DNA of 64,000 nt from a virus: IMG/VR virus record IMGVR_UViG_3300042892_002840, positions 1 through 64,000 of that record, one strand, 5' to 3'. Below the pieces are notes generated by a model. It made no database searches, was not told the origin of the DNA, and saw only the letters and a list, made by a program, of their open reading frames with translations. Within the stretch, counting starts at the first letter, position 1, and the number at the start of each line of letters is the position of its first letter. Shown here piece after piece: positions 31,592 to 50,469 of this stretch. The position numbers were made by a program, and so were the translations under genes.

Positions 31592-32743
31592 TTACGCCTC
31601 TTCTAGTGCTTTTACTCTCGCTGTAAGTTCTTGTACCGCTTTAATTAATGGAGAAATAAACTCTTCGTATCTAAGAGCTTGTTGTCCTTCTGAATCATTT
31701 ACATCAGATATTACCCAACCACCAAAATCTTCGACGTCAGAGTCATCTACTGCTTGTTTTACCTCTTGTGCGATCAAGCCGTAGTGTGTTCTGTCCCCAT
31801 CAATCTTGGTATACTTAACTGGGTTTAATCTATTGATAAAGTCTAAACCTAAATCAGTTTCAATTATATTTTCTTTTGTTCTTGAATCAGAGATGACTGT
31901 TGCTGCAGTATTCAAATATATGTTTTTCCAGGCTCTGGTTGTTGAGCTTGTTCCTCCATCAATTGGCCCAATAATTCCCAAAGAGTATTGGTTAGTTGAA
32001 AGAGGAAACCAGTTAGACGAAACTCCAACTGAGGATGTAATAGTAGTATTTAAACCTATGATTGTTGAAATTGGATTAAGCGAAGGAGTAACTCCAGCTG
32101 GCCCCTGTGCGCCCTGTGCGCCTGCAGCGCCTGGCTCTCCTGGTGCCCCATCTTGTCCTCTTGGGATAACAAAGTTTAAAAGAACATTACTTGATGTCCC
32201 AGAGTTTGTTACATCTGCATTTGATCCAGGTGCCGAAGTAGTTGTTGAAACAACCTGAATTGTTGCCGCTGCATCTCCCTTTGCTCCTGTAGCTCCAGTA
32301 CTTCCTGTAGCACCCGTAGGTCCAACCATGGTTGTTCCCGCTGGCCATGCACCAGAAACTTTTGGGCCAAATATTGTTGTTGAAGATGTATTAATATAAA
32401 AGTCTCCATCTGAACCAACTTCTGAGCTTGGGTTAGATGTTCCGTTAAGCACACTGTTTCCGCCCATTGCTGTTCCAGATCCCCATGCTCCAGATGTTTT
32501 AGGGCCAAATATTGAGTTGCTTACTGTGTTGATGTAAAAGTCTCCATCAACCCCAGTAACGCTTGTTGGGTTTGATGTCCCGTTAAGTACGCTAGTGCCT
32601 CGCTCTCCCTGCTCACCTTGTGGGCCTGGGTTAGCCTCAATAAAGGCAGAGATATCCTCTGCAAGAACCCCTAGATCTCTAGGGACATCTGGTGAATCGG
32701 AGTAGCTGGGAAAACGCCAGCCGTTTATACCTGTTGTGCTCAT
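31592..32743 (-). CDS. collagen-like fibre with S74 chaperone
   Basis: Three Gly-X-Y stretches; SDSRTKENI...HYGLIAQEV. Confidence 0.85.
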   Translation of the reverse strand: MSTTGINGWRFPSYSDSPDVPRDLGVLAEDISAFIEANPGPQGEQGERGTSVLNGTSNPTSVTGVDGDFYINTVSNSIFGPKTSGAWGSGTAMGGNSVLNGTSNPSSEVGSDGDFYINTSSTTIFGPKVSGAWPAGTTMVGPTGATGSTGATGAKGDAAATIQVVSTTTSAPGSNADVTNSGTSSNVLLNFVIPRGQDGAPGEPGAAGAQGAQGPAGVTPSLNPISTIIGLNTTITSSVGVSSNWFPLSTNQYSLGIIGPIDGGTSSTTRAWKNIYLNTAATVISDSRTKENIIETDLGLDFINRLNPVKYTKIDGDRTHYGLIAQEVKQAVDDSDVEDFGGWVISDVNDSEGQQALRYEEFISPLIKAVQELTARVKALEEA

Positions 32744-32762
32744 TTTTTAATTATACCACCTA

Positions 32763-33374
32763 TTAATTTAATTTACTTCTTTTGAACATGAATGCTGGAC
32801 ACATATACTTAAACCCAGAAACAATCGGTGTTGATTCGTGATAGTAAGGCTTTACTGATGGGAACATCAAAAGGCTTCCTGGCTCTGGCTTTAATTTAAT
32901 GTTGTGATTTTTAAATATAACATCGCCACCCTCAAAATCATCATTTAGATATAGGACAATTGAAGCTGTTAATCTTGCTTCGTCATCATCATCTTCACAA
33001 TCAATGTGTGGACCCATTTGTCCACCTGGGTGATACTTTCTAATGGTTATTTCATCTGGTAAAAAACCAAGGTCTTTATCGACTGACTCAGAGTAATCAT
33101 TAATGCACATCTGTATTGCATCATGAATAGTTGATATAATCAAAAAAGATTCTTCGTCTACAGAACCATCAAGACCGCTTCTATATGCACCCGCTTTAAA
33201 CTCTCCGAACACATCATCTGGCCTAGTACTTGAAACCCATGGTTCCCAATTACTGAGAGTAGGATTGCTTGCCATCTTAAGATTAAGCTCTTCTATTTTT
33301 TTAATAAAAGCATTAGGATTTGGAATTAATTCTTTGTAATAAAAAATCCCATCTGCTAAAACTTCTTTTATCAT
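32763..33374 (-). CDS. 2OG-Fe(II) oxygenase, prolyl-4-hydroxylase-like
   Basis: HID, YLNDDFEGG, YH, K (SGFKY). Confidence 0.9.
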   Translation of the reverse strand: MIKEVLADGIFYYKELIPNPNAFIKKIEELNLKMASNPTLSNWEPWVSSTRPDDVFGEFKAGAYRSGLDGSVDEESFLIISTIHDAIQMCINDYSESVDKDLGFLPDEITIRKYHPGGQMGPHIDCEDDDDEARLTASIVLYLNDDFEGGDVIFKNHNIKLKPEPGSLLMFPSVKPYYHESTPIVSGFKYMCPAFMFKRSKLN

Positions 33375-34069
33375 TCTCTACCCTTTGGCATAGATGGCTT
33401 TCCTTCTGGAGTTGCCCATTTTTTATAAAGCTCTTCTTGCTCTTCTCTGACTTTCTTTAACTCTTCTGCCCATGCTTGCTTCTGTTCTTCTGTATACACA
33501 CATCTAGCATCATCCCAAAAGGATCCGATTGTGTATCTTATTCCGCCTCGAACAGTTGTGACCATGTGCTCTCTTGTATGACCGCCAGCAAAAAATGCTG
33601 CTAGGCCAATCTCTGGCTTTACGTCAATGCCATTGTCTTTAAATTTTAAATGACCACCTTCAAAATCATCATTTAAATAAATGAAGACTGCATATTTACT
33701 TTTTTCAAAAGCTGTTGGATTTCCATCATCGTCTGAGTTATCTGAGTGATAGTCAGCAAATGCACCATCAATCCATCTCTGTGCATGGTAGCTGACTTCA
33801 TTAACCTCAAACCCTAAAAGCTCTTCAGTCTTTGACTTAATTTTTTCTTTAAGTTGACCGAAGAAGTCTGGGTCAAGGCCAAATAACTTAAGCCTATCGT
33901 CTGTTGGCCAGTATCCCATGGCTTGTGATCCGTAAAAAGAGATCTCGTTCCATTTAAGAACCTTATTGTCTACAAGGTAGTCAAAGTATTTAATGACAGC
34001 TTCGCAGGTCTCTTTATCTATAAAATTTTCTACAAGAAAAAATTCATCTCTAATAGGCCTGTCTGTCAT
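33371..34069 (-). CDS. 2OG-Fe(II) oxygenase, prolyl-4-hydroxylase-like
   Basis: HSD, YLNDDFEGG, H, R (GIRYT). Confidence 0.9.
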   Translation of the reverse strand: MTDRPIRDEFFLVENFIDKETCEAVIKYFDYLVDNKVLKWNEISFYGSQAMGYWPTDDRLKLFGLDPDFFGQLKEKIKSKTEELLGFEVNEVSYHAQRWIDGAFADYHSDNSDDDGNPTAFEKSKYAVFIYLNDDFEGGHLKFKDNGIDVKPEIGLAAFFAGGHTREHMVTTVRGGIRYTIGSFWDDARCVYTEEQKQAWAEELKKVREEQEELYKKWATPEGKPSMPKGRE

Positions 34070-34854
34070 GATTCATACCCTAAATGTTTTCTTTCTGAGT
34101 ATTTCATGTTTTTTGGATTTTCTTTTTCAATTCTATCCCACTCCATCTTAGCCCATCTGTATGCCCCAATGTGTTTTTGGTTAGCTATCCATTCTGGGGT
34201 TCCATCAAAGATATGCTGAATAAAATTACGAATAAAGAATTTTTCTCCATTTTTAATTACTCTAACTCCATGGAAATATGGTTCTGTTGAAGGGAATACA
34301 AGGATGTCTCCCGCCTTTGGCTTGTATGGATAGTATACGTCATCAACAATAAACTCAATATCTCCGCCCTCGTAGTCATCGTTTATGTATGTTGTGCAAG
34401 TCAGCAAAAACTTTGGACCTGGCATATCTCTTTCAGAAATAATATAATCCGTGTGGTATTGCATTGTCATTTCATTTCGCATAGTATCAATGTTTGAATT
34501 ATATTTTGAAAACGAAGATGTCATCAACTTTGAGGTTGGTGGCATTTGAACATTGTATCTTTCTACGTAGTCTTCAATTGCAGTATTGTATGCCTCGTAA
34601 ACTCTATCAGACAAATGCTTTTCTTCATCATACATAGGGCCAAACTCTCTAGGCTCATTGTCGTCGTGTTTTTGCTGTGAGTATGTACCAAAAATAGACC
34701 ATTGGTCCCAAGTTCTTAAGTAGTACTTTCCTTCTGATGTGCGCTCAGATCTCTTCATTATGTCATAAAGATTATCTGCGTCAGGTAGTAATCCCTGATA
34801 AATTCTTACATTTGGCAGTAACTCAAATGATGTGTACTCTTGCTTACTTGTCAT
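34066..34854 (-). CDS. 2OG-Fe(II) oxygenase, prolyl-4-hydroxylase-like
   Basis: HTD, YINDDYEGG, FH, K (GEKFF). Confidence 0.9.
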   Translation of the reverse strand: MTSKQEYTSFELLPNVRIYQGLLPDADNLYDIMKRSERTSEGKYYLRTWDQWSIFGTYSQQKHDDNEPREFGPMYDEEKHLSDRVYEAYNTAIEDYVERYNVQMPPTSKLMTSSFSKYNSNIDTMRNEMTMQYHTDYIISERDMPGPKFLLTCTTYINDDYEGGDIEFIVDDVYYPYKPKAGDILVFPSTEPYFHGVRVIKNGEKFFIRNFIQHIFDGTPEWIANQKHIGAYRWAKMEWDRIEKENPKNMKYSERKHLGYES

Positions 34855-35521
34855 CCTCTAATCCCAACTTTGTTATTGTCCAGAAAAATGGGGCAGTATA
34901 TCTAGTCCCACTTGTAACCTTTGTCACTCCATGAATATAGTTCTTGTCCCCAGGGAAAAAGTACGCTGCTCTTGGTTTAGGTTTAAATTTAATATTTTGA
35001 AGTGGAAAGAATAGCTCTCCGCCTTCATAGTCGTCGTTTAAATAAAATACAGTTCCTAAGTCATACCATGGAAATTCATTTGGTGTTCCTGCGTCTGGGC
35101 CTTCGTGAAGCTCTTTATCTGCATGTGGAAACTGCATTGTGCCTACAGGCCACCTTACAATAGCTGCATCAGTCGGCTTTACTTCAACCTGAAACTTTTC
35201 TCTAATATAAGGTGTCATTCTTTCAATTACACGATCTAAAATTGCTACAACTTCGCCTGTTGGATCTGCTTTCAAAAGAGTATTCATTGTTGCTACTCTG
35301 TCTTCCCAAACCCTGTGGTCATATATAATGCTTCCATTTTCATTCCATTGGGACTCTGTTACATCCCATACAGTGTTGCTTTTTGCAAAAGTAAGAAGAT
35401 AGTCTTGCTCTTCTGGTGTCACCATGTCCTCTAGCTCGACAACATTATCTGGTGAATTGCCAAAGTATCCAGAAGGAGTGATAGTTTCTCTTGCGTATCG
35501 TGCTCTTTTAGTATATTCCAT
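34844..35521 (-). CDS. 2OG-Fe(II) oxygenase, prolyl-4-hydroxylase-like
   Basis: HAD, YLNDDYEGG, IH, R (GTRYT). Confidence 0.9.
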   Translation of the reverse strand: MEYTKRARYARETITPSGYFGNSPDNVVELEDMVTPEEQDYLLTFAKSNTVWDVTESQWNENGSIIYDHRVWEDRVATMNTLLKADPTGEVVAILDRVIERMTPYIREKFQVEVKPTDAAIVRWPVGTMQFPHADKELHEGPDAGTPNEFPWYDLGTVFYLNDDYEGGELFFPLQNIKFKPKPRAAYFFPGDKNYIHGVTKVTSGTRYTAPFFWTITKLGLEDDK

Positions 35522-35528: not shown

Positions 35529-36257
35529 CTATTCATATTTCTTTAGAGATCGAACGGTTTGCTTGTATGCACCGCCGTCTTTTGTTCTAAACTTTTTTGC
35601 CTGAGCATTGTGTCTTTCTTGCAAAGAAACAAGGTCATGAAATTTTGGCTCCATTTTCCACTCTTCTCTTTTATATGGAATTAGCTGAAGGTAAGGAGTT
35701 CCTTTTGGAACCTTACCCTCAAAGTCATTCCTTAAGAAAAACGGTATAAGACCTGGAGTATTCATCTTATCATTATCTATTATAGCAGAGGTGGTTATAA
35801 ACGGTAAATCAAATCTGTTGATTGGATTTACATATAAAACGCTATATCCATCTGGAACCTCTGGTGCCCAATTAGGATACCAGTGGAAGTGTCTGTCTAG
35901 GTATCCGTGTGGAACTGGAAACTCATTCATAGGGGCTCTTGACCCAACAAAATCTTCGTATCCTGGTTCTGGTATTGCTATCATCTCACCATTTGGCAGT
36001 TTGCTAAAAACAATATCGCATGGGGTTACATAAAAATATCCAGTGATAAATATATCAAGTAAACCTGGGCAAGACTTAAAGCTTCTTACTAGTCCACCTT
36101 CAGGGTTGGGCCAGTACTCTCCTGTCTGCTTGTTAAGCTCAAACTTGTCTGCTTTTTTAAACCATTCTGGAGTTAAATTTCTTGCTGGCTTTGGCTGATA
36201 TTCTTCGCTTATAATGTTGTACAGCCTATTAGAATGAAATTTTATTTTATTGCTCAT
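35529..36257 (-). CDS. DUF6065-like protein of unknown function
   Basis: KSCPG..D...GY..TPCD, NRFDLPF, GTPYLQLIPYKRE; paralog of 39473..40204. Confidence 0.6.
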   Translation of the reverse strand: MSNKIKFHSNRLYNIISEEYQPKPARNLTPEWFKKADKFELNKQTGEYWPNPEGGLVRSFKSCPGLLDIFITGYFYVTPCDIVFSKLPNGEMIAIPEPGYEDFVGSRAPMNEFPVPHGYLDRHFHWYPNWAPEVPDGYSVLYVNPINRFDLPFITTSAIIDNDKMNTPGLIPFFLRNDFEGKVPKGTPYLQLIPYKREEWKMEPKFHDLVSLQERHNAQAKKFRTKDGGAYKQTVRSLKKYE

Positions 36258-36945
36258 TTGTTTTTAACCTAATTACCTTTAGCTCGTGTTCACCTATTTT
36301 GTTGCCTAGATGATCTGTTGCATTCCTATAAAAGCCAGCCCACTTACCCTGCTGATTAATTCTTTCTGCTGTCTCTCCATATTCTCTTCCATCAAATTGA
36401 GCACCGACGTAATCCTTACCGTCGTGTAAATTAATTTCAGAATTATTTAATTCAGACAAAGTAATTGGGAGTATGGCAGCTACTGGTGTATTTGCTGGTA
36501 TTGTTATAATCTTTCCTGGGGAAGTTATTCTCCAAACAACTGGAATCTCGCCTGAAAAAAATGATGTTGTTAATAGCGTAGTAAATGCTTGAGCTCCATC
36601 TATAAATTGATTTGGAACTGGCATAATAAGAGTTGTTGTCTCCAAGTTAGTCTTAAAGGTTAGCCCTGTCCTAAAGCTTATTGTTCCATTTGCTCTATTT
36701 GTGTGACAATAATTTTCTCCAGAAAGAACCTTTACATGATCTGGGCTGCTATTAGAAATGCCATCCCATATAAAAGAAATATCTTCTGGAAAAGAAATTC
36801 CCCATCCTAGTTGATTTGCAAGGCTTACTGGAAAACAATTGTAGGCGTGTCTATCTACAGTATTTTCCATCCAGTCTCTCTTTACAGAAAGCTGGGATAT
36901 CTCCCCTGGATTTTTATCAGCCTTATAAACCTCTATTTTATGCAT
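36247..36945 (-). CDS. DUF6065 family protein
   Basis: RDWM...HAYNCFPVSLANQLGW signature. Confidence 0.7.
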   Translation of the reverse strand: MHKIEVYKADKNPGEISQLSVKRDWMENTVDRHAYNCFPVSLANQLGWGISFPEDISFIWDGISNSSPDHVKVLSGENYCHTNRANGTISFRTGLTFKTNLETTTLIMPVPNQFIDGAQAFTTLLTTSFFSGEIPVVWRITSPGKIITIPANTPVAAILPITLSELNNSEINLHDGKDYVGAQFDGREYGETAERINQQGKWAGFYRNATDHLGNKIGEHELKVIRLKTNEQ

Positions 36946-37636
36946 AGCCCTCAGTGTATCTCTTTTCTATTTCCCTATAGTCTGGAGTATGCGGAGCCTC
37001 TAAATAGTCTAGCATTGTTACTATTGAATATTTTGTGCCGCTTGTTACTGGAAGCGAAGCGTGAGAAAACAGATAGCTTGAAGGGAAAAGGTACAGGTCT
37101 CCTGCTTTAGGCTTAATCTTTAAATTAAATTTATCAAAGTAAAGTTCGCCTCCTTCATAGTCATCATTAATATATCCTACCGATGACAGCACACATATAT
37201 AAGAGTATCCATGATCTGAGTGTACTTGAAAATGCTGGCCTGGCCCATACTTTACAAAATTAAATGATTCCCAGTACTTGAGTGGAGCAACATTAAAGCG
37301 CTGTCTATAATCTTCAACAGGACCTATTTGCACATCTCTTGAGTCTTCCCAAATTTTTTCTAGCTTTATCTGATCTGGGCTCTTGTTGGAATCATCTGGA
37401 TTGTTTTTCTTAACTTTAAAATCAAAAGCATCTCTATACTTAAGGTCGTTGTTAGCGTATCCCGTTGTAGCCTGCTTCCATTTGTATGTGGAGTGAGGGG
37501 AATCAGAATATCCAACCCCTTCTGCATTAGGGTCTGAAGATAGGCATTCTTCTAACCTATTAATTAGATCCATTTCTTTTGTAAATACATTTCTGTAAAC
37601 AAGCACACCTGGTGCTAAAATTTCTGGCTGGTTCAT
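36938..37636 (-). CDS. 2OG-Fe(II) oxygenase, prolyl-4-hydroxylase-like
   Basis: HSD, YINDDYEGG, SH, K (GTKYS). Confidence 0.9.
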   Translation of the reverse strand: MNQPEILAPGVLVYRNVFTKEMDLINRLEECLSSDPNAEGVGYSDSPHSTYKWKQATTGYANNDLKYRDAFDFKVKKNNPDDSNKSPDQIKLEKIWEDSRDVQIGPVEDYRQRFNVAPLKYWESFNFVKYGPGQHFQVHSDHGYSYICVLSSVGYINDDYEGGELYFDKFNLKIKPKAGDLYLFPSSYLFSHASLPVTSGTKYSIVTMLDYLEAPHTPDYREIEKRYTEGYA

Positions 37637-37675: not shown

Positions 37676-38437
37676 TTAGTCAATCAACTTATCTTTTATA
37701 AATCTACCTCTTTTTTTATCTATAGCAACAAGACTTGACTTATATAAGTCTTTTGTCCAAAAGCTTGTGTGAGTGTATCTGTTGCCAGAAGTTATCTGTC
37801 TGATACCGTGCATTGTATTTATGTCACCACTGAATATTAAAAGCATTCCAGCTTTTGGCTTAATTGAAAACTCATTATGTTGAGGAAAGAAAAGCTCTCC
37901 TCCTTCAAAATCATCATTAAGATACAGCATTGAGGTGTAAAGTTTATTTGTAAATAGCCTTTTATATTCAGTTATATTTTTTTCTTCAAAGAAATATTTG
38001 CATTGCTCTGGGACTAAAGATAAATCAATAGTGCTTAGGTCAAAGTTTGGATCGATAAAGTCAACATGTGGCTCTTGAAGATGTGGGTAATACCATTTAA
38101 CTATTTCCCATAACTCGCTGTATATTTCAAAATCAGGCTTAAAGAAATCTTTTACTTGCTCTTCCATTCTTTCTTGAATTGGAACAACAAATTTAAACAG
38201 TTCTTTGTAGTTTTCCATGCCCTCTCTGTAAAGCTCATTTATCTCTATTCTACGATTATCCCAGTGCTCTGCTGCAGACTTATAGTCTTCTTCTGTCTTA
38301 AAAGTTTGTCTTTGTCTATTATGCTTAGACCATAATCCAGATTCTTCTGAATATTTAATTAGCCAGTCGCATTCTTCCTTGCTTATAAAATTCTCAACTA
38401 TTCTACAATGTGGTGATTTTAGGTCTTTTATATTCAT
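37676..38437 (-). CDS. 2OG-Fe(II) oxygenase, prolyl-4-hydroxylase-like
   Basis: VENFISKEEC, HVD, YLNDDFEGG, MH, R (GNRYT). Confidence 0.9.
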   Translation of the reverse strand: MNIKDLKSPHCRIVENFISKEECDWLIKYSEESGLWSKHNRQRQTFKTEEDYKSAAEHWDNRRIEINELYREGMENYKELFKFVVPIQERMEEQVKDFFKPDFEIYSELWEIVKWYYPHLQEPHVDFIDPNFDLSTIDLSLVPEQCKYFFEEKNITEYKRLFTNKLYTSMLYLNDDFEGGELFFPQHNEFSIKPKAGMLLIFSGDINTMHGIRQITSGNRYTHTSFWTKDLYKSSLVAIDKKRGRFIKDKLID

Positions 38438-39000
38438 CTCAACCAGCTTGCTATTGCGTATCTGGTTCCAGAGATTACTGGATTAACCTTATGCCTATAT
38501 GCATATGAAGAAGGAAACATTATAAAATCTCCTGCCTGTGGCTTATACTTTACATCAAATGAAGGGAACTCTATTTCCCCTCCCTCATAGTTATCATTTA
38601 AATAAAATACAGTTGATGCCCTTCTAAAAGTTGCGCCTGCGTCATCTATGTGTAGATCAAATTTGCCGCCGACATCGTACTTTAGTATCTTGTAGGGCTG
38701 ATGAACCTTAAATTTAATATAATGGTCTTCTTCATAATCTTTCTCTATTTCAGAGAATGTTTTATTGAAAAGGCTTGAAAAAAACTTAACATAGTCTTCG
38801 TCTTCTTCCCTTGAGTAAGCTGTAATATCTATTGATTTTGTATCTCTGTAAGAACTGTCTAGTGATTTGTTTCCGTCATTAGCATCAACAACATACTCTG
38901 ATAGCCATTCGGCATTTGACAAAGATTCTATTTCTTTAAAAATTTTTGAGCTATCTATCTTGTAGACAACTATTCCTGGCGCTAGTGTACTTTTAATCAC
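38434..39000 (-). CDS. 2OG-Fe(II) oxygenase, prolyl-4-hydroxylase-like
   Basis: HID, YLNDNYEGG, RH, R (GTRYA). Confidence 0.9.
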   Translation of the reverse strand: MIKSTLAPGIVVYKIDSSKIFKEIESLSNAEWLSEYVVDANDGNKSLDSSYRDTKSIDITAYSREEDEDYVKFFSSLFNKTFSEIEKDYEEDHYIKFKVHQPYKILKYDVGGKFDLHIDDAGATFRRASTVFYLNDNYEGGEIEFPSFDVKYKPQAGDFIMFPSSYAYRHKVNPVISGTRYAIASWLR

Positions 39001-39473
39001 ATAAACATCCTGTAGTAGGGCCTAATAAACCATTTTGGAGTAATAGGATTTACATGCATCTTCCATATTATTGCAAATGCATAGGTGTCGTTATTAAAAT
39101 TATTTAAATATGATTCTCCATTTTTAATAACAAATGTGCTGTTTTCATATTCACCATTTAAATATGTTAGAGTCTGACAAAATGTGTCTTCGTCAAACTT
39201 AGCATTCTCTATATTTCCATTAATTTTTAAAATTTGATAATAAAATGGAAACACTTTTTCTGAAACATTATGGTTGTCGTATATTATTTGCTGAACAGAT
39301 AGCCCAGTCTCTTCGACAATTCTAGCTGAGTGCCTATGTATTTTATACATCATCTCGCCATCAATTCTATTTTCTGTCCACAGCTTTGGCTGTTTAGAAA
39401 GGTTCCATTGATCTAATGATATTAGTACTTCTTTGTAAGGGTCAAGCAAAGAAGATGGTATGTGTGTGTACAT
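38997..39473 (-). CDS. degenerate oxygenase-like protein lacking the HxD/H triad
   Basis: TYLNGEYE resembles the YLNDDYEGG motif, but no HxD is present. Confidence 0.5.
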   Translation of the reverse strand: MYTHIPSSLLDPYKEVLISLDQWNLSKQPKLWTENRIDGEMMYKIHRHSARIVEETGLSVQQIIYDNHNVSEKVFPFYYQILKINGNIENAKFDEDTFCQTLTYLNGEYENSTFVIKNGESYLNNFNNDTYAFAIIWKMHVNPITPKWFIRPYYRMFM

Positions 39474-40204
39474 TACTTATACTCTCTTCTTTCCCAAAAC
39501 TTATCCTTATATACTCCGCCATCTGGCTTTCTAAATATCTTTCTTGTTTTTATAATTCTATCATATATATCGCCAGCCTTGTCTATCTGCAATTCTGATT
39601 CCCAATTTTCTCTTTTGAATGGTATTATTTGTGCATATGGGGTGCCAGCTGGTATTACTCCTAGCCAACCTTCAATTAAAAAAAATGGCAAAGATCCTGG
39701 CATAGAAACTTTATCTGTATCTATAATCCCAGATGTGTTGATAAACGGTAAATCAAATCTATTCATTGGCGTTATATACAGAGAGCTATAGCCGTCTGGA
39801 GTTTTAATTCCCCAGTCAGACATCCAAGCAAAGGATTCTTTTCTATATCCTAATGGCGTGGGAAATCCAGAGAGCGGATGCCTTATTTCACAAAAGTCTT
39901 CATATTTTGAATCTTCTATTTTTACATCTATTTCTAAGTTTTCATTAATAAAAAATTCAATATCACATGGTGTTTTTAATACATATCCTGTTGTAAATGC
40001 ATCAAGTAAAGCTGGACAACCTTTCCATGTTGCCATCTTTCCACCATCTGAGTCTAAAACATATTCATTTTTTTCATTTTTAAAAAATCTATCTGCAATA
40101 CTATACCATTTTGGAATAAATTTAGATGTTGGCATTGGGCTGCTTATGCTTGACTTATTCAGCCAATGCCTATTAGCAATAAATGTTATTAGGCTTGCTT
40201 TCAT
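39473..40204 (-). CDS. DUF6065-like protein of unknown function
   Basis: KGCPA..D...GY..TPCD, NRFDLPF, GTPYAQIIPFKRE. Confidence 0.6.
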   Translation of the reverse strand: MKASLITFIANRHWLNKSSISSPMPTSKFIPKWYSIADRFFKNEKNEYVLDSDGGKMATWKGCPALLDAFTTGYVLKTPCDIEFFINENLEIDVKIEDSKYEDFCEIRHPLSGFPTPLGYRKESFAWMSDWGIKTPDGYSSLYITPMNRFDLPFINTSGIIDTDKVSMPGSLPFFLIEGWLGVIPAGTPYAQIIPFKRENWESELQIDKAGDIYDRIIKTRKIFRKPDGGVYKDKFWERREYK

Positions 40205-42280: not shown

Positions 42281-44095
42281 TTAAGCTGAAAGGTCTCCGA
42301 CAAGCACCCAAGTATTTGCCGCTCTCTTGATGAGAGTTGCTGATGACCATTGTGCACGAAGCTTTAATCCTGGAGTTGCATTTACTGTAACTCCACCTGC
42401 TGCTGCAACATCTACTGCGCCTGCTCCCACTCTCAGAACATCTAGGGATGTACCGATTGGGAATGCAACTGCTGCATCTGTTGGAATTGTTACTGTTGTT
42501 GCAGAAGCTGAGTTCATTTCAATCATTGAGTCTTTTTCATTGACTGATGAAAGAGTGTAGCTTGCTGTCTTCTGTGAAATTGGTGTAGCAGAAGGAACCT
42601 TGCCAGCTAACGCTGTTGTTACAGTAGCTGCGTAGTTTGCGTCATCTCCAAGTGCTGCTGCTAATTCATCAAGTGTGTTTAGCGCTGCTGGTGCTGATGC
42701 AATTACTGCATTCACCTGTGCTGTTGCATCTGCAATAGCTTCTGACTTAGCTGTTGCAATTGCTGTAGCCTGTGCTGAAGATACTGGCTTATTAGCATCT
42801 GATGTATTGTCAACGTTTCCTAGGCCAAGTGTAGTTGCTGTGACAGCTGCTACTTCTGACTTAAGTGCTAGAAGTGATGTATCTGAAATTCCGTGTACAT
42901 TTGTTGTATCTGAGTTGTGATCTGATACCTTTGTGTCAGCAGCTGTTGCTGCTGCTGTAATAGCTTCTGACTTAGCATTTGCTGCCTTTGTTGTAGCATC
43001 TGCTGCTGCTGCTGAAACTGCACCATCTGCTTTAGTTGTAGCGTCTGCTGCTGCTGTAGCTAGTGCAGTTGTAATCGCTGAGTCACGATCTGCAACTGTT
43101 GAAATTACAGTCTGGTCAACGCTAAGTGTTAATAGGTTTCCTGCATCGTCATATACTCTTCCAAGACCGTTTCCAGCAGTAACCTGAATCATTCCTGCTG
43201 CTGTATCTTGAATTAGCTCTGCAGCATTTGCCTGAGAAACGTATGTTGTTGATGCGTTGTTAATTGTTAAATATGTGCTTGCAGCATCTGTCTTTGCAAG
43301 GTAGTCGGCATCATTGAGTGCCTTATTCTGATAGCTTGCTTCTAGAGCTGTTGTTGTGACGTATCCTTCAATTGAAGCACCAGCTGGAATTGTTACTGTT
43401 CCAGTAAATGTTGGTGATGCGATTGTTGCCTTTGTTGCTAAAGCAGATGTTACTGTTGTAGCGTAGTTAGCATCATTAGCTATTGCTGTTGCAAGCTCAT
43501 TAATTGTATCTAGGGCCTCTGGAGCTCCGTTTACAAGTGTTTGAAGTGATGCATCTACATATGTGCGTGTAGCAACTGTTGAGTTAATTGCAATTGCACC
43601 TGTTGTATTGTCGTATGAAATTCCTGTTCCGCCTGAGAGCTTTGCTCTAACTGATGCGTCTGAAATTTGATCCGCAAGGACCTTTGCGTTTGCATCAAGT
43701 GATGCTACACCAAAAGCTACACCCTTATCGGCTTCTGGAACATATGTTCCATCAGCTGAGTTAGATAGTGCAGTAACTGCGTTATCTACGTAATCTCTAT
43801 TTGCCCATACTGTATCACTAATTTCAATAGTAATTGTATTTGCACCATCGTTGTATGTCTTTGTAAGACCAGTTCCAACTACGAGTGCTGAGTTAATTGC
43901 ATCTTGTGCAATTTCTGTAACTCCTGGGGTATCTGATGCGCCGTATGAAAGTGTATTCCATGCTCCTGTACCATTACCAAATTTAAACTTATTACTATCT
44001 GTCTCATATCCCATTTCACCTGCGGCTAATACTGGGTTTACTGAAGACCAGTCTGCTGCCAGACCTCTTCTTACTTGAATTCTTACTGTTGACAT
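42281..44095 (-). CDS. fibre protein with Mtd_N-like N-terminus
   Basis: RIQVRRG..W...NPVLAAGEMGYETD; APEALDTINELA motifs; Ala-rich heptads. Confidence 0.8.
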   Translation of the reverse strand: MSTVRIQVRRGLAADWSSVNPVLAAGEMGYETDSNKFKFGNGTGAWNTLSYGASDTPGVTEIAQDAINSALVVGTGLTKTYNDGANTITIEISDTVWANRDYVDNAVTALSNSADGTYVPEADKGVAFGVASLDANAKVLADQISDASVRAKLSGGTGISYDNTTGAIAINSTVATRTYVDASLQTLVNGAPEALDTINELATAIANDANYATTVTSALATKATIASPTFTGTVTIPAGASIEGYVTTTALEASYQNKALNDADYLAKTDAASTYLTINNASTTYVSQANAAELIQDTAAGMIQVTAGNGLGRVYDDAGNLLTLSVDQTVISTVADRDSAITTALATAAADATTKADGAVSAAAADATTKAANAKSEAITAAATAADTKVSDHNSDTTNVHGISDTSLLALKSEVAAVTATTLGLGNVDNTSDANKPVSSAQATAIATAKSEAIADATAQVNAVIASAPAALNTLDELAAALGDDANYAATVTTALAGKVPSATPISQKTASYTLSSVNEKDSMIEMNSASATTVTIPTDAAVAFPIGTSLDVLRVGAGAVDVAAAGGVTVNATPGLKLRAQWSSATLIKRAANTWVLVGDLSA

Positions 44096-46644: not shown

Positions 46645-47829
46645 TTAAGACGGAATAAAACCAGAAGGCAGTCCTTTTATTACACGCTCTTCTAATTCAC
46701 CAGTTGAGAAGTGTATGCCAGAATACCTTTCAAAATCTTCAAGTGTTCTCTCTGCAAATAAGCCATTTACTGGATCAATCTTGTTTTTAACTATAATCTG
46801 CTGAAAGTAAGACTTCGATGCATTATGTCTTGGATAAAATTCTTCTGGAAAGTCGTCCCAAAACAAGACTCTGTCTGGTCTACCGTATCTATGATACACG
46901 AATACTTTTCTTGGAGTTACTAGATTGTAACCCGCTGTAAAAAACCTAAGTGCCATAAGTGGCTCTTCCTCAGTAAATGTAACTTCATCTACAAATGGCA
47001 CAGATTCAATTACTGTTTTTTCAGTAAAGAAAAAGTGGCCAGACAAATAGGGGGAAAGCACATTTGTTTCTGGGTTAGTGTATTGTGGGGTAAACTGAGG
47101 AACAAGAGTAGACTTAAAATGTGCAATGTTTGACTCTGACATAAAGAATGTTGGATTAGCCTCACATTCCTGAAGTTCGTCATTTCCATTTTCATCTACT
47201 GTATATGGTGGTACATATGCTGTAAATACAAGTTCATCAAAGTTTTGCTTGGCATAGTTATACTCTTTAATTAATTCTGTATCCCACCCAGATATTGATC
47301 TCATGTGGGAGTCCATGTTAAGATAGTAGTCTTGGTTGTTATAAAACTTGTGAGAATTCTTCCTAGCAGGCTGGCAACCAATAATTGATCCAGGATTTAA
47401 TGAATCAACTGACACATTTTTTCTTTTTGATGCTTCTGCTATATTAAAATCTATGTCATCATCCTGAATAGTTAATCCAAAATACACTCTATCTGGAAAC
47501 TCAGCATTCTTTAAGAAGTTATCTACTGTGGTCCAAATCTCTGGGTCTTTATATGATGGAATATTGATAAATATAGTAGCTTCATTCTGTATCATAAGCA
47601 ATTCCATTTCTTTTTCTGTTACTGGATCTTCTCCGCCCCATTTATGAATAGGGCATTCTGCTAACTGCAATTTGGTTTTGAATTTCATAAAACAACCACA
47701 CTTTTTACATTGCTTGGTTGTATTAATAAACTCTGGGCATGCCTTGCATATCTCATATCTTGATTTAGCAAGATCTGGAGTGGCATATTGACTATTAGGG
47801 TTTAATAGGTCCCATGGCTTTACTGACAT
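46645..47829 (-). CDS. Gnt1/GT60-like (hydroxyproline) polypeptide GlcNAc-transferase with N-terminal Cys-rich domain
   Basis: TIFINIPSYKDPE, YYLNMDSHMR..GWD, FTEEE, VYHRY match the Skp1 Gnt1-type pattern (IFV.I.SYRD.E...QIDSHMRF..WD); N-terminal six-Cys domain ending CPIHKW. Confidence 0.8.
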   Translation of the reverse strand: MSVKPWDLLNPNSQYATPDLAKSRYEICKACPEFINTTKQCKKCGCFMKFKTKLQLAECPIHKWGGEDPVTEKEMELLMIQNEATIFINIPSYKDPEIWTTVDNFLKNAEFPDRVYFGLTIQDDDIDFNIAEASKRKNVSVDSLNPGSIIGCQPARKNSHKFYNNQDYYLNMDSHMRSISGWDTELIKEYNYAKQNFDELVFTAYVPPYTVDENGNDELQECEANPTFFMSESNIAHFKSTLVPQFTPQYTNPETNVLSPYLSGHFFFTEKTVIESVPFVDEVTFTEEEPLMALRFFTAGYNLVTPRKVFVYHRYGRPDRVLFWDDFPEEFYPRHNASKSYFQQIIVKNKIDPVNGLFAERTLEDFERYSGIHFSTGELEERVIKGLPSGFIPS

Positions 47830-47847
47830 ATATATATGATATCATTT

Positions 47848-50469
47848 TTACTTGTTGTGGACAAGCATGCCATTTACAAAGAACCAGTCATATGGTTCAC
47901 AAGAGAACTGATATACATTTACAGTCTCGTTTGCCATAAACTCTATCTTATTAACAATAGTTTCATTAATTGTTCCATCAGAATTAACAGTTATTAAATA
48001 TTCTCCACGCTCAACATAATATGCCTCTTTAATCTTATATTTACCGTCTAGGGTTTTAACAAAAACTGGCTGAGTATATGTCATTCTTGTATCAACATCA
48101 TCGTTAAAATATAATATGTCAGATTCTTGTGTTTCAATAATATCTGTTATTGTTGTTTCAACAAATTCATTAACGGATAAGTTGTCTGAAGACCATGTTG
48201 AGAATTGATAAGAGTCTGGTGTGGACGCATCTATTTCATCAATTACTATAGACTTAATCTTGTCTCCGACCTGTAAGAACTTAGCTGGTACTTGACCATC
48301 CATTGTATCTACAAGTGTGTTTTCTTCTACACAAGGAGGTCCAAACCAAGGGATGAATACAAAGCTTGGGGGTGCGAAGAACCCTGGAGGAGAAAAGAAT
48401 CCTGGAGGAGAAAAGAACCCTGGAGGTGCGAAGAACCCTGGAGGGCTAAAGAACCCTGGAGGTGCAAAGAAACTTGGAGGGCCAAATGCTAAAGCTCCTC
48501 CACAGCATGACCAGCCTGAAGGAACATTGTATACATCAGATCCACCAAGACGTGAATAGCCAAGCTCTGAACATGTGTAAGAAGTTGGATTTGTTATTGT
48601 TCCAGGACAATCTTGTTTTGTTGGTGTAGGAGTTGGTGTAGGAGTTGGTGTAGGAGTTGCTGTAGGATTTGGTGGTGTTGGGGTTGCAGTTGGTGTTGGG
48701 GTAGGTGTCGGAGTTGGTGTAGGAAGCGCTCCTCCACAGCATGACCAGCCGCTTGGTACATTGTAAGCATCAGATCCGCCAAGTCTTGTATATCCTAATT
48801 CTGAACATGTAGAAGACACTGGATTGGTTATAGTTCCAGGGCAGTCTTGTAAAGGTGTTGGGGTGGGCGTTGGAGTTGGAGTAGGTGTTGGAGTTGGGGT
48901 TGCAGTTGGTGTTGGGGTAACTGTTGGATCACAAGCAGCAGCTGCAGCATCCCGTAATGCAGCCGCATAGGTTGTTCTATAAACTGTTTTTACTGTTCCG
49001 TTAACGTTATAAACCGATGTATCTGCAGGAATTCCTGTTGTATTTGTAGTTGGTCCAGAAGCTGAAGGTGCAGACACATATTCTCCGCTAGTACCCTTGC
49101 ATGTAGATGTTCCAGTGTAGTAAACATATGTTGTTGGGGTTGCAGTTGGTGTTGGGGTAGGTGTAATTGTTGGATCACAAGCGGAGTTTCCTGCATCCAC
49201 AAGGGCGGCAGAATAAGTCGTTCTATAAACTGTTTTAATGCTTACTGTTCCATCAAGTACCTGTGTATCTTGTGGAAGAGTGTTGCCTTCTGCAACAAAT
49301 GGGCCAGTAACTGAAGGAGATGCGGAATAAACTCCACTGAATCCATTACATCTAGAGACTCCAGTGTAATAGCTTACTCCAGTTAAAGTAGTGAATTCGA
49401 CAGTATTCGATGTCCAGGATGTCTCATCAAAATTTGGTGTTGTTCCAGATGCTACAACTTTATACCTATATGTTTCTCCAGCTGTTAGGAATGTTATTGG
49501 AATTGTATTAGTTGTTCCTGAGTCATTTCCTGCTGGCAAAGAAGATCCATCTGGGTTTACCCAGTAAAGCTGCCAGCCATTTTGAGTAAAGTTAGATGTA
49601 GACCATGAAAGTGTTGCTGTGGTTTGTCCGATATCTGAAACTGATAAAACTACAGTTGGATCAAATGGTTTCATATCTGGGACAACATATTCTTTATAGG
49701 CGCCTTGAAGAGGCTGTCCTGTTGCTTGAAAATAAGGGTTGTTTGTGTTTTGTGAAGCAATATAAACTAACAATGGACCATCTGCTTTACCTAAAAGACT
49801 TTCAAATGGAGCTATTGATGAAACTAAAGATGTGGTTTCATAAGCAGTTTGATTTTCTACTGAATCAACAATCTTTTCGTTTTGAATTCCTGCTCCTACA
49901 AAATAAATTTTAAATTTATTTGCACTTGGAACCCTTAACCATCTTAAATTAACTTTGCTATTTTCTGGAACAGTAGCATCTATATATATTACATCTTGTG
50001 GCTTTACTAAATAGTCATTGAGTCCAGCTAAAAGGTTATTGCCATTTACGTAAACTGGTTCGCTATCACCAAACTCATTTGTTGCCACAACTTTACACCT
50101 AAGAACATATCCTACCATTTGCTTATCAATATAAGAAGAATTGTTATTTGAACCAAAATCAATCCATGTTGCATTTGTATAATCATTTGAAATCAAGTAT
50201 GCAGCTTTTTGCCAAGTATATCTGTAAGAGGTTGGTGTATTTGTCCATGTGCCGCTTGTAATTGTTACAAACTGATCTGCCATTCGATTATTATTTTGCC
50301 AATTAAAAACTGGAGATTCTGTAAGAACTGGGACAGCAGCCCCAAACTTTTTCCATTCAGTTCCATCGAAAACATAAGATGCCTTTGAATCAACCCATGA
50401 AGAACCGTCATGTATCTTGATTTTCTTTAATGGCTTCCATTCGGATCCATCAAATATATTTAAAGGCAT
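47848..50469 (-). CDS. multidomain Ig/FN3 + PT-rich + Cys-repeat + (FFxPPG)6 + Hint protein
   Basis: GTWTNTPTSYRYTWQ Ig-like motif, FN3, TPTPTP tracts, two duplicated Cys modules, CVEENTLV...GMLVHNK. Confidence 0.85.
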   Translation of the reverse strand: MPLNIFDGSEWKPLKKIKIHDGSSWVDSKASYVFDGTEWKKFGAAVPVLTESPVFNWQNNNRMADQFVTITSGTWTNTPTSYRYTWQKAAYLISNDYTNATWIDFGSNNNSSYIDKQMVGYVLRCKVVATNEFGDSEPVYVNGNNLLAGLNDYLVKPQDVIYIDATVPENSKVNLRWLRVPSANKFKIYFVGAGIQNEKIVDSVENQTAYETTSLVSSIAPFESLLGKADGPLLVYIASQNTNNPYFQATGQPLQGAYKEYVVPDMKPFDPTVVLSVSDIGQTTATLSWSTSNFTQNGWQLYWVNPDGSSLPAGNDSGTTNTIPITFLTAGETYRYKVVASGTTPNFDETSWTSNTVEFTTLTGVSYYTGVSRCNGFSGVYSASPSVTGPFVAEGNTLPQDTQVLDGTVSIKTVYRTTYSAALVDAGNSACDPTITPTPTPTATPTTYVYYTGTSTCKGTSGEYVSAPSASGPTTNTTGIPADTSVYNVNGTVKTVYRTTYAAALRDAAAAACDPTVTPTPTATPTPTPTPTPTPTPTPLQDCPGTITNPVSSTCSELGYTRLGGSDAYNVPSGWSCCGGALPTPTPTPTPTPTATPTPPNPTATPTPTPTPTPTPTKQDCPGTITNPTSYTCSELGYSRLGGSDVYNVPSGWSCCGGALAFGPPSFFAPPGFFSPPGFFAPPGFFSPPGFFSPPGFFAPPSFVFIPWFGPPCVEENTLVDTMDGQVPAKFLQVGDKIKSIVIDEIDASTPDSYQFSTWSSDNLSVNEFVETTITDIIETQESDILYFNDDVDTRMTYTQPVFVKTLDGKYKIKEAYYVERGEYLITVNSDGTINETIVNKIEFMANETVNVYQFSCEPYDWFFVNGMLVHNK
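48250..48357. repeat. 108-bp exact repeat, copy 2
   Basis: Identical to 41337..41444. Confidence 0.95.
48364..48471 (-). repeat. coding tandem repeat, 6 x 18 bp, FF[S/A]PP[G/S]
   Basis: Counted from DNA and protein; preceded by degenerate AFGPPS. Confidence 0.95.

What the first reader, a model, noticed from the sequence alone, without database searches (positions are those of the whole stretch)
31592..50469. Candidate phage proline hydroxylation + O-glycosylation system with its own (FFxPPG)n-Hint substrates
Seen: two genes (40935..42254, 47848..50469) encode FN3/Ig domains, then 12 or 6 FF[S/A]PP[G/S] repeats, then a Hint domain. The first is followed within ~25 bp by a cluster of 8 intact P4H-like oxygenases and 3 DUF6065-like genes, ending at a collagen-like fibre. 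The second is followed within ~20 bp by a Gnt1/GT60-like transferase. Established: X-Pro-Gly is the canonical prolyl-4-hydroxylase target (collagen; bradykinin RPPGFSPFR), and in Dictyostelium/Toxoplasma PhyA hydroxylates a Skp1 proline that Gnt1 then GlcNAcylates. Inference: the phage encodes enzymes and substrates for making hydroxyproline-linked glycoprotein virion appendages (adhesion, protease shielding, fibre stability, or O2/2OG sensing). This would give a concrete substrate for otherwise unexplained phage oxygenase arrays.
Basis: partly seen in the sequence, partly recalled or inferred. Interest (0 to 1): 0.95.

Follow-up and report, generated by a model that had tools for sequence, protein, structure and literature searches.

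The report
Hint-capped proline-repeat phage proteins beside hydroxylases
An uncultured freshwater phage of actinobacteria has two tail-fibre-region proteins that end in a sticky Phe/Pro repeat capped by a probably self-removing intein-like domain. They sit beside hydroxylase and sugar-transferase genes in a module kept across very distant relatives, so the repeats are a testable but unproven substrate for these phage enzymes.

Summary
Two minus-strand genes encode FN3-type domains, then 12 or 6 FF[S/A]PP[G/S] units, then a 161-aa Hint (bacterial intein-like) domain. It has Cys1, Gln in place of the block-B His, and ends HN-K-stop. One gene is followed after 23 nt by eight PF13640 oxygenases with intact iron and 2OG residues plus three DUF6065-like genes. 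The other is followed after 18 nt by a PF11397 (GT60) transferase.

- For: Hint-tract genes stay next to a PF13640 gene in 32 of 51 dereplicated relatives. This holds through at least six gene orders and down to about 30% identity, often together with DUF6065-like, DUF6171-like and GT60 genes.
- Against the specific version: X-Pro-Gly is not conserved. Relatives carry PFF, FTPFG or PPPPNF tracts.
- The GT-linked proteins all carry Thr/Pro mucin-like linkers, which are equally good acceptors.
- DUF6065-like proteins have a dUTPase fold.
- In unrelated phages the parts occur separately.
- No chemistry has been shown.

Earlier follow-ups in this scan reported the same kind of module on at least six other genomes, with the same "partly supported" verdict. 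I found no published description.

The parts
40935..42254 (-). Gene A: fibre-associated protein, FN3 + FN3-like + 12 x FF[SA]PP[GS] + C-terminal Hint domain
   Evidence: ORF and translation; Pfam fn3 E 2.8e-9; repeat positions
41451..41666 (-). 12 hexapeptide repeats of gene A (18-bp period), followed by the invariant junction IPWFGPP|C
40935..41420 (-). Hint (BIL-like) domain of A: Cys1, TxTQP in place of the TxxH block, HN-K-stop
   Evidence: Alignment A1 invariants; profile vs PDB 2lwy E 6.5e-5; 6rpq alignment
40204..40911 (-). PF13640 oxygenase directly after gene A; its clade is Hint-adjacent in relatives
   Evidence: Pfam E 4.6e-14; triad; tree
39473..40204 (-). DUF6065-like / phrog_7084 protein with dUTPase-like fold
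   Evidence: phrog_7084 E 6.5e-36; AF2 pLDDT 83; Foldseek and VIA hits to dUTPases, Z up to 9.8
38997..39473 (-). Degenerate oxygenase paralogue lacking the HxD...H triad
   Evidence: No Pfam or PHROG hit; alignment; conserved in relatives
38434..39000 (-). PF13640 oxygenase
   Evidence: Pfam E 1.7e-17; PDB PiuC and P4H hits
37676..38437 (-). PF13640 oxygenase
   Evidence: Pfam E 1.2e-8
36938..37636 (-). PF13640 oxygenase, 44% identical to 40204..40911
   Evidence: Pfam E 5e-13; blastp
36247..36945 (-). DUF6065 (PF19541) protein
   Evidence: Pfam E 3.6e-27
35529..36257 (-). DUF6065-like / phrog_7084 protein
   Evidence: phrog_7084 E 3.7e-28; alignment A3
34844..35521 (-). PF13640 oxygenase
   Evidence: Pfam E 1.7e-7
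34066..34854 (-). PF13640 oxygenase
   Evidence: Pfam E 1.1e-8
33371..34069 (-). PF13640 oxygenase
   Evidence: Pfam E 1.7e-9
32763..33374 (-). PF13640 oxygenase
   Evidence: Pfam E 4.7e-11
31592..32743 (-). Fibre with short collagen-like G-X-Y runs and a C-terminal Peptidase_S74 self-cleaving chaperone domain
   Evidence: Pfam S74 E 3.1e-13, Collagen E 1.1e-3 below cut-off; G-X-Y runs and 4 X-P-G sites
47848..50469 (-). Gene B: N-terminal domain + FN3 + two (PT)n-linked Cys-rich modules + 6 repeats + Hint domain
   Evidence: 234-bp internal duplication
48364..48471 (-). Six hexapeptide repeats of gene B
47848..48333 (-). Hint domain of B, 70% identical to that of A
46645..47829 (-). GT60 (PF11397) glycosyltransferase fused to a DUF6171-like Cys module
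   Evidence: Pfam E 7.3e-41 and DUF6171 E 4.4e-4; phrog_24687 and phrog_13558; DSH motif conserved with L101
42281..44095 (-). Mtd_N-type tail fibre gene directly upstream of gene A; syntenic in relatives
   Evidence: Pfam Mtd_N E 1.7e-13; synteny
50483..52210 (-). Mtd_N-type tail fibre gene directly upstream of gene B
   Evidence: Pfam Mtd_N E 2.5e-12; synteny

Best explanation
This is the late tail-fibre block of an uncultured freshwater actinobacterial phage.

The proteins. Two fibre-associated, adhesin-like proteins each end in a Pro/aromatic low-complexity tract fused to a C-terminal Hint (bacterial intein-like) domain. The Hint domain most likely removes itself. Cys1 would attack the preceding peptide bond to form a thioester, which is then hydrolysed or passed to another nucleophile. 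The terminal Asn can release only one Lys. The mature protein would therefore end in the sticky tract.

The enzymes. The adjacent genes are PF13640 oxygenases, dUTPase-fold DUF6065-like proteins, a DUF6171-like Cys module and a GT60 transferase. They form one conserved module with the Hint genes. Their most likely job is to hydroxylate and O-glycosylate the Pro-rich and Thr/Pro-rich segments of these virion proteins in the infected cell.

Shown: the domain families, the catalytic motifs and the conserved linkage.
Inferred: self-cleavage, the substrates, the modified residue (Pro or Thr) and the sugar.
For: Architecture and motifs.

Hint homology: 2lwy E 6.5e-5. In family representatives Cys1 is present in 65 of 65, the block-B position is His in 50, Gln in 47 and Glu in 11 of 114, and HN ends most members.

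Virion role in another lineage: Dickeya phage AD1 gp108 is annotated as a virion structural protein and is collagen-like with a C-terminal Hint domain.

Oxygenases: all eight keep the iron and 2OG ligands. Their PDB relatives are protein hydroxylases. GT60: Pfam E 7.3e-41.

Linkage: 32 of 51 dereplicated Hint genes have a PF13640-like ORF within 700 nt. This holds across several gene orders and down to 27-30% identity, Pfam-verified. Specific oxygenase clades go with specific Hint gene types; the adjacency label needs at least 8 changes on the tree against a shuffled mean of 18.

Operon: genes overlap or lie under 40 nt apart on one strand, among structural genes.

Candidate targets: only the Hint proteins carry PP dipeptides in the fibre block. 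The lineage whose A-type tract lacks PP (FTPFG) also lacks the adjacent array.

Host: WhiB gene and a Streptomyces-phage-like portal.
Against: No modification or cleavage has been observed.

- Pro at position -1 and Gln in place of the block-B His are both unfavourable for canonical intein chemistry (own knowledge of intein biochemistry).
- The AF2 model of the Hint domain was poor, pLDDT 49.
- All linked loci belong to one broad phage family, so conserved synteny is not fully independent evidence.
- In unrelated phages the parts occur separately. AD1 has a Hint-capped fibre but no PF13640. XacN1 has a GT60-like gene near its DNA polymerase and no PF13640. Cyanophage S-RIM4 has scattered PF13640 genes. 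No phage in the cultured collection matches the C-terminal domain.
- The DUF6065-like proteins have a dUTPase fold and sit next to ribonucleotide reductase genes elsewhere.
- Eight ancient, individually conserved paralogues are more than one repeat substrate seems to need.
- Three further PF13640 genes lie outside the structural block.
Confidence: 0.42

Rival explanations
1. First reader's specific version. Prolyl 4-hydroxylases convert the second Pro of FFxPPG to 4-hydroxyproline and the GT60 adds GlcNAc to that Hyp, as in the Skp1 PhyA/Gnt1 pathway.
For: PF13640 and PF11397 are the two families used in the Skp1 pathway. In distant relatives a PF13640 gene sits between the B-type Hint gene and the GT60. 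Very Pro-rich tracts such as PPPPNF go with a full oxygenase, GT60 and DUF6065-like cluster.
Against: X-Pro-Gly is not conserved in relatives. In this window the GT60 follows gene B with no oxygenase beside it, and gene A with its 12 repeats has no adjacent transferase. B-type proteins carry long Thr/Pro linkers, the known acceptor type of other GT60 enzymes. The oxygenases are below every NCBIfam equivalog cut-off, and their PDB relatives include lysyl hydroxylases.
Confidence: 0.17
2. Neighbours by location only. The junction between the fibre genes and the portal gene is a cargo hot spot. The oxygenases and dUTPase-fold proteins act on other targets such as host proteins, metabolites, nucleotides or phage DNA, or on 2OG levels. 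The Hint proteins mature without them.
For: A class II ribonucleotide reductase fills the same slot in the FTPFG lineage, and four oxygenases of that lineage sit 25-35 kb away. The DUF6065-like proteins have a dUTPase fold and neighbour reductase genes in haloviruses and a cyanophage. A GT60-like gene lies near the DNA polymerase in XacN1. Oxygenases are scattered among unrelated genes in S-RIM4. Multi-copy oxygenases in cyanomyoviruses have been linked to 2OG levels (PMC3037559).
Against: A PF13640 gene stays adjacent to the Hint gene through many rearrangements and at about 30% identity. In L101 the enzyme cluster lies between an FN3-Hint protein and a PASTA-domain protein. The genes are in a late structural operon. 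PF13640 and PF11397 members of known function act on proteins (own knowledge of the families).
Confidence: 0.28
3. The oxygenase array serves the collagen-like S74 fibre at its end, by collagen-type Pro or Lys hydroxylation, not the Hint proteins.
For: The array ends at the S74 fibre in the window and its close relatives. The fibre has G-X-Y runs with APG and EPG sites. The best PDB hit of one oxygenase is collagen lysyl hydroxylase LH3. The FTPFG lineage lacks both the array and a detectable S74 fibre.
Against: There are only about 4 X-P-G sites and 54 G-X-Y residues. The PFF lineage has the array but no S74 fibre was detected within 1-1.8 kb after it. Clusters of the L101 and L093 type have no collagen-like gene.
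Confidence: 0.08
4. The repeats are a multi-core RiPP-like precursor. The enzymes tailor released FFxPPG peptides.
For: Strict hexapeptide phase with synonymous codon variation (note e1-6076795).
Against: There are no protease sites between units. Relatives have irregular PFF/PPFF tracts with no unit boundaries. The tract lies between FN3 domains and a Hint domain in a fibre gene block.
Confidence: 0.02

Closest known systems
Bacterial intein-like (BIL) domains (e.g. Clostridium thermocellum BIL, PDB 2lwy) and Hedgehog/Hog C-terminal autoprocessing domains
   Same: Hint-type sequence profile, Cys1 nucleophile, His-Asn at the C-terminal end, position at the end of a secreted or surface-type protein, and no homing endonuclease.
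   Different: Gln replaces the block-B His in this clade and Pro is at -1. Only one residue (Lys) follows the terminal Asn. The domain is always preceded by a Pro/aromatic tract. It lies in a phage fibre gene block. Pfam Hint models stay below threshold.
Skp1 prolyl hydroxylation and glycosylation pathway of Dictyostelium and Toxoplasma (PhyA + Gnt1, GT60)
   Same: A P4H-superfamily oxygenase and a PF11397/GT60 transferase are encoded together.
   Different: No Skp1-like target. The candidate targets are repetitive virion proteins. There are many oxygenase paralogues plus a dUTPase-fold partner. The acceptor residue is unknown.
Hydroxyproline-rich glycoproteins of plants and green algae, and chlorovirus PBCV-1 prolyl 4-hydroxylase with Pro-rich repeat peptides (Eriksson et al. 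1999, listed in PMC7019647)
   Same: Pro-rich, aromatic-containing low-complexity proteins encoded with P4H-type enzymes. A virus-encoded P4H acting on the virus's own Pro repeats is a precedent.
   Different: Bacterial virus, cytoplasmic setting, Hint cap, and a GT60 rather than Hyp-arabinosyl or galactosyl transferases. The PBCV-1 review cites an unpublished analysis that found no Hyp in virions.
Virion O-glycosylation of mycobacteriophages by phage glycosyltransferases (Freeman et al. 2023, cited in PMC12801897)
   Same: Actinobacterial phages with their own transferases beside structural genes that decorate virion proteins.
   Different: Different transferase families and different targets (capsid and tail tube). 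No hydroxylases or Hint domains are involved (own knowledge; the paper is not held in the library).
Multi-copy 2OG-Fe(II) oxygenases of T4-like cyanophages (Sullivan et al. 2010, PMC3037559)
   Same: Nearest cultured relatives of the window's oxygenases at 27-36% identity. Several copies per genome, function unknown.
   Different: Scattered singly among unrelated genes in S-RIM4, and no Hint-tract protein is detectable in cultured phages.
Peptidase_S74 intramolecular chaperone of phage fibres and spikes
   Same: A C-terminal domain of a fibre protein that is expected to cut itself off after assembly. One is present in the same block.
   Different: Unrelated fold and chemistry (Ser-Lys dyad versus Cys thioester).

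Membership tests
Hint superfamily (BIL / Hog-type autoprocessing domain) | Sequence or profile homology to Hint domains | tested here: met
   Profile A1 vs PDB: 2lwy BIL E 6.5e-5, inteins 6rpq E 1.8e-4 and 5bkh E 4.7e-3. Family members give sub-threshold PT-HINT, Hint_2 and Intein_splicing hits. No Pfam hit for the window proteins at E<0.01.
Hint superfamily (BIL / Hog-type autoprocessing domain) | N-terminal Cys/Ser nucleophile at position 1 | tested here: met
   Cys1 is invariant in 26 of 26 close relatives and 65 of 65 distant representatives.
Hint superfamily (BIL / Hog-type autoprocessing domain) | Block B TxxH histidine | tested here: not met
   The window and all 26 close relatives have TxTQP with Gln. 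Across 114 representatives the position is His in 50, Gln in 47 and Glu in 11. The clade is therefore a variant within a family that otherwise has the His.
Hint superfamily (BIL / Hog-type autoprocessing domain) | Penultimate His and terminal Asn | tested here: met
   H159 and N160 are invariant. HN is present in about 93 of 114 representatives.
Hint superfamily (BIL / Hog-type autoprocessing domain) | Hint fold | tested here: inconclusive
   The AF2 model has pLDDT 49 and was not usable for a fold search.
Intein (protein splicing element) | C-extein with a +1 Cys/Ser/Thr nucleophile, inserted in a host protein | tested here: not met
   Only Lys and then the stop codon follow the terminal Asn. 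This is not an intein.
Prolyl 4-hydroxylase-like 2OG-Fe(II) oxygenases (PF13640) | Pfam model above the gathering score | tested here: met
   Eight ORFs score 32.5-64.6 bits against a cut-off of 27.
Prolyl 4-hydroxylase-like 2OG-Fe(II) oxygenases (PF13640) | HxD...H iron triad and a basic 2OG-binding residue | tested here: met
   All eight keep them; 38997..39473 does not.
Prolyl 4-hydroxylase-like 2OG-Fe(II) oxygenases (PF13640) | Peptidyl-proline as substrate | not testable with these tools
   PDB relatives include lysyl hydroxylase LH3, B. anthracis P4H, PiuC and P3H1. No NCBIfam equivalog is reached.
GT60 / PF11397 polypeptide GlcNAc transferases (Gnt1 type) | Pfam model above the gathering score | tested here: met
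   141.2 bits against a cut-off of 21, E 7.3e-41. No solved structure matches by sequence.
GT60 / PF11397 polypeptide GlcNAc transferases (Gnt1 type) | DxH metal/nucleotide motif | tested here: met
   DSH in the window aligns with DSH in the 27%-identical L101 homologue.
GT60 / PF11397 polypeptide GlcNAc transferases (Gnt1 type) | UDP-GlcNAc donor; Hyp or Thr acceptor | not testable with these tools
   Needs an enzyme assay.
Skp1 hydroxylation/glycosylation pathway | Skp1 target with the modified Pro | not tested
   No Skp1 search was run. The similarity is by enzyme families only.
dUTPase / dCTP deaminase superfamily (for the DUF6065-like genes) | Trimeric-dUTPase-type beta-barrel fold | tested here: met
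   AF2 pLDDT 83. Foldseek top hits are all dUTPases or dCTP deaminases. In VIA-align the top 22 hits are all dUTPase-family or related proteins with Z 5.5-9.8, and the next unrelated entry (rank 24) has Z 3.5. Profile vs PDB: WSSV dUTPase E 0.014.
dUTPase / dCTP deaminase superfamily (for the DUF6065-like genes) | Catalytic motifs I-V | tested here: inconclusive
   The phrog_7084 type keeps IIDTD and AQIIP, which resemble motifs III and IV. The DUF6065-proper type does not. No motif V was seen.

The most novel reading that the evidence does not exclude
A large family of aquatic actinobacterial phages carries a dedicated module that builds hydroxyproline-rich, O-glycosylated virion appendages. 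The module holds a Pro/aromatic-repeat adhesin matured by a C-terminal Hint domain, cognate prolyl hydroxylases, a GT60 transferase and a dUTPase-fold helper. This would be a bacterial-virus counterpart of plant extensins or Skp1 glycosylation, and the first defined substrate for phage 2OG-oxygenase arrays.
Probability: 0.22. Interest if true: 0.9.

Novelty: new variant of a known kind. Interest (0 to 1): 0.68.

Why it matters
Multi-copy 2OG-Fe(II) oxygenases are common in aquatic phages and have no known substrate. This module puts specific oxygenase clades, a GT60 transferase and Pro-rich virion proteins side by side. That gives a concrete, cheap experiment: co-expression followed by intact-mass and peptide mass spectrometry. 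It also defines an undescribed family of C-terminal Hint domains (472 cluster representatives at E<=1e-3) that cap Pro/aromatic tracts in phage fibre proteins. This may be a new way of maturing or anchoring virion appendages. Finally it assigns a fold, dUTPase-like, to DUF6065.

Tried and rejected
- Complex prediction of oxygenase 40204..40911 (alignment A4) with residues 185-285 of protein A: verdict 'no answer', score 0.01. This is neither support nor evidence against.
- AF2 on the Hint domain with a 26-row alignment: pLDDT 49, unusable.
It found nothing for P0011, P0016 or P0017 in viral contigs.
- Megablast and tblastn of the region and of the C-terminal domain against cultured phages: no match. 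tblastn with P0036: no match.
- The search for homologous proteins on the C-terminal domain returned only four unnamed proteins.
- The promoter and terminator scan gave no more sites than shuffled sequence.
- Collagen-like triple helix for (FFSPPG)n, based on a small residue at every third position: rejected, because relatives have periods of 3/4, 5 and 8.
- RiPP multi-core precursor: rejected, see rivals.
- Literature searches found no description of Hint-capped Pro/aromatic phage proteins or of phage P4H+GT60 modules. Freeman et al. 2023 is not held in the library.

Full report
**Setting.** The window is the first 64 kb of a 97-kb IMG/VR virus record, linear and estimated 86% complete. All genes from about 27 to 53 kb lie on the minus strand. 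They overlap or sit less than 40 nt apart. The block runs from Mtd_N-type tail fibres (50483..52210 and 42281..44095) to a portal gene (27794..29386; phrog_12, E 1.7e-58). The portal is 54-58% identical to portals of ~127-kb Streptomyces phages. The genome also carries a WhiB gene. The host is therefore very probably an actinobacterium. The 34-43% GC and the lake-type sources of the relatives point to freshwater lineages.

**Observation.**
- Gene A (439 aa) has a Pfam fn3 domain, a second FN3-like stretch, twelve FF[SA]PP[GS] units (residues 197-268) and a 161-aa C-terminal domain that begins at Cys279.
- Gene B (873 aa) has an N-terminal domain, a weak fn3 match, two (PT)n-linked Cys-rich modules made by a 234-bp duplication, six repeat units, and the same C-terminal domain.
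- Both arrays show an 18-bp DNA period.
- Gene A is followed after 23 nt by eight ORFs above the PF13640 gathering score. All eight keep HxD...H and an Arg or Lys.
- The array also holds one degenerate paralogue, one Pfam DUF6065 gene and two phrog_7084 genes homologous to it.
- The array ends at a fibre with short G-X-Y runs and a Peptidase_S74 chaperone domain.
- Gene B is followed after 18 nt by a PF11397 (GT60) gene (E 7.3e-41) fused to a DUF6171-like Cys module.

**The C-terminal domain is a divergent Hint domain.** A profile of 26 relatives hits the solved bacterial intein-like domain 2lwy (E 6.5e-5) and mini-inteins. The single sequence aligns its TFTQPIF segment with intein THPFF, and its C-terminal IHN with VHN. 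Cys1, His159, Asn160 and Lys161-stop are invariant. The block-B His is replaced by Gln.

A profile search of 1.84 billion cluster representatives finds 472 relatives at E<=1e-3. Nearly all carry the domain at the C-terminal end. Cys1 is present in 65 of 65. The block-B position is His in 50, Gln in 47 and Glu in 11 of 114. Most end HN plus 1-6 residues. There is no C-extein nucleophile, so this is not an intein. It resembles BIL or Hog-type self-cleaving caps. Pro at -1 and the Gln make the chemistry uncertain. The AF2 model was too poor to use.

**The repeat is a compositional tract, not an X-Pro-Gly motif.** In relatives the FFxPPG units are replaced by several other tracts:
- (PFF/PPFF/PYF)n without Gly;
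- (FTPFG)n and (FSPFGVFG)n;
- (PHFPP)n and (IPAPFFPP)n;
- poly-Pro PPPPNF;
- short non-repetitive Pro/aromatic stretches.

Forty of 65 representatives have at least 40% Pro plus aromatic residues in the 40 residues before Cys1. Copy number varies from 5 to 14 among close relatives of A. N-terminal parts are FN3, PASTA or Cys-rich modules, as expected of surface-binding appendages.

One unrelated group gives the only annotation-level link to virions. These are jumbo phages of Dickeya, Erwinia and Yersinia. In Dickeya phage AD1, gp108 is annotated as a virion structural protein. It has a collagen-like region, an Ig-like part and a C-terminal Hint domain with a canonical His.

**Are enzymes and Hint genes linked?** Within the phage family, yes, and strongly. 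In 38 IMG/VR loci the order seen in the window is kept. In more distant members, B-type genes are followed by a small PF13640 gene, a separate DUF6171-like ORF and a separate GT60 ORF.

A metagenome scan added 56 loci whose Hint domains are 26-46% identical to the query (one short fragment 57%). Maps built with my own HMMs, checked with Pfam, show at least six arrangements:
1. fibre, Hint, oxygenase/DUF6065 array;
2. Hint, PF13640, Cys ORF, GT60;
3. FN3x2-Hint, PF13640 after a 12-nt gap, a 200-aa ORF, DUF6065-like, DUF6171-like, PF11397, PASTA protein;
4. PPPPNF-Hint, PF13640, DUF6065-like, PF11397, PF13640, DUF6065-like x2;
5. FTPFG B-type, a Hint-like ORF, PF13640, and further on a GT25 transferase;
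6. PF13640, Hint, and further on the portal.

Of 51 dereplicated Hint genes with at least 1.5 kb downstream, 32 have a PF13640-like ORF starting within 700 nt. The type-3 Hint domain and GT60 are only 30% and 27% identical to the window's. On an oxygenase tree the Hint-adjacent copies fall into several clades, each tied to one Hint gene type. The adjacency label needs at least 8 changes against a shuffled mean of 18. The paralogues are old: 22-51% identical to each other, mostly over the catalytic core, but up to 98% identical to their orthologues.

**What weakens the link.**
- All these loci share fibre and portal homologues. They are one large family, so conserved synteny is not independent replication.
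- In the FTPFG lineage the A-type gene is followed by three unknown ORFs and a class II ribonucleotide reductase, not by the array. Four of its five oxygenases lie 25-35 kb away.
- Across unrelated phages the parts occur alone. AD1 has no PF13640 in 262 kb. XacN1 has a GT60-like gene beside its DNA polymerase and no PF13640. A halovirus has a DUF6065-like gene beside its reductase and no PF13640. Cyanophage S-RIM4 has 4-7 scattered PF13640 genes. No phage in the cultured collection has a detectable homologue of the window's Hint domain.
- Three more PF13640 genes of this genome lie outside the structural block.

**DUF6065 has a dUTPase fold.** An AF2 model of 39473..40204 reached pLDDT 83. Foldseek returns only dUTPases and dCTP deaminases. 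In VIA-align the top 22 hits (Z 5.5-9.8) are all dUTPase-family or related proteins; after one Z 5.0 entry the scores drop to 3.5. The profile also touches WSSV dUTPase (E 0.014). The phrog_7084 subtype keeps motifs like dUTPase motifs III and IV; the DUF6065-proper subtype does not. In types 3 and 4 this gene is translationally coupled to the GT60. A role with uridine nucleotides or nucleotide sugars is therefore one inference. A role in nucleotide or DNA modification is the rival.

**Which residue?** The GT60-linked Hint proteins examined carry long Thr/Pro or Thr/Ala mucin-like linkers. This is the acceptor type of trypanosomatid and Dictyostelium GT60 enzymes (own knowledge; also raised in note e1-6076796). 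The A-type proteins lack such linkers and lack an adjacent transferase. Thr O-GlcNAcylation is thus at least as likely as Hyp glycosylation.

The oxygenases' solved relatives include lysyl hydroxylase LH3, B. anthracis P4H, PiuC and P3H1, and no NCBIfam equivalog is reached. The residue they act on therefore cannot be inferred. Within the fibre block only the Hint proteins contain PP dipeptides. The collagen-like fibre offers about four X-P-G sites.

**Verdict.** The general idea is the best available reading, at about 0.4: this is a phage module pairing Pro-rich, Hint-capped virion proteins with their own hydroxylases and a GT60. The specific claim of X-Pro-Gly hydroxylation followed by Hyp-GlcNAc is one sub-case, at about 0.17. 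A hot-spot or other-substrate reading remains serious, at about 0.28.

Earlier follow-ups in this scan reached the same verdict on related genomes. I used them as leads only. I found no paper describing the module.

Noticed in passing
window 35529..36257, 36247..36945, 39473..40204 (-): DUF6065 / phrog_7084 proteins have a dUTPase / dCTP-deaminase-like fold (VIA Z up to 9.8). Cultured relatives in haloarchaeal tailed viruses and cyanophage S-RIM4 sit next to ribonucleotide reductase genes. This gives a fold to a domain of unknown function.
   Followed up: yes
window 40831..40863: A perfect 14-bp-stem hairpin lies just inside the 5' end of the first oxygenase ORF, 72 nt after the stop of gene A. 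It is kept in close relatives with a compensatory GAG/CTC to GAT/ATC change and a G-U wobble, and is absent in the PFF lineage. It may be an attenuator or RNA-processing site that sets the structural-to-enzyme expression ratio.
   Followed up: partly
window 38997..39473 (-): A 158-aa degenerate oxygenase paralogue without the HxD...H triad is conserved at the same array position in relatives. It may be a non-catalytic partner.
   Followed up: partly
window 46645..47829 (-); L015-L031, L101: The N-terminal DUF6171-like Cys module of the GT60 is a separate ORF in distant relatives and a stand-alone small gene in cyanophages and in Stenotrophomonas and Rhizobium phages. This is a fusion/fission pair of unknown function.
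   Followed up: partly
window 48494..48918: A 234-bp duplication (1.8 copies, 77% matches) creates two (PT)n-linker plus Cys-rich modules (CPGTITNP...CCGG) in protein B. The module has no Pfam match.
   Followed up: no
L042 13450-15480 and 4436-5185: In the FTPFG lineage a class II ribonucleotide reductase fills the slot between the A-type Hint gene and the portal. A GT25 transferase, the family of collagen hydroxylysine galactosyltransferases, replaces the GT60 downstream of the B-type gene.
   Followed up: partly
L054 7017-8456 (Dickeya phage AD1 gp108): A jumbo-phage 'virion structural protein' combines a collagen triple-helix region, an Ig-like part and a C-terminal Hint domain (TxxH His present, ends HN plus 11 residues). 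The genome has no PF13640 gene. Homologues occur in about 50 Erwinia, Dickeya and Yersinia jumbo phages.
   Followed up: partly
G000 contig 75991-76251, 85392-85643, 91229-91477 and 86403-86576 (beyond the window): Three further PF13640 oxygenase genes and a WhiB gene lie outside the structural block of the same genome.
   Followed up: no
L101 11793-12722; protein P0008: PASTA (peptidoglycan-binding) domains occur in a protein just after the enzyme cluster and as the N-terminal domain of one Hint-tract protein. This fits cell-wall-binding appendages of phages of Gram-positive hosts.
   Followed up: no
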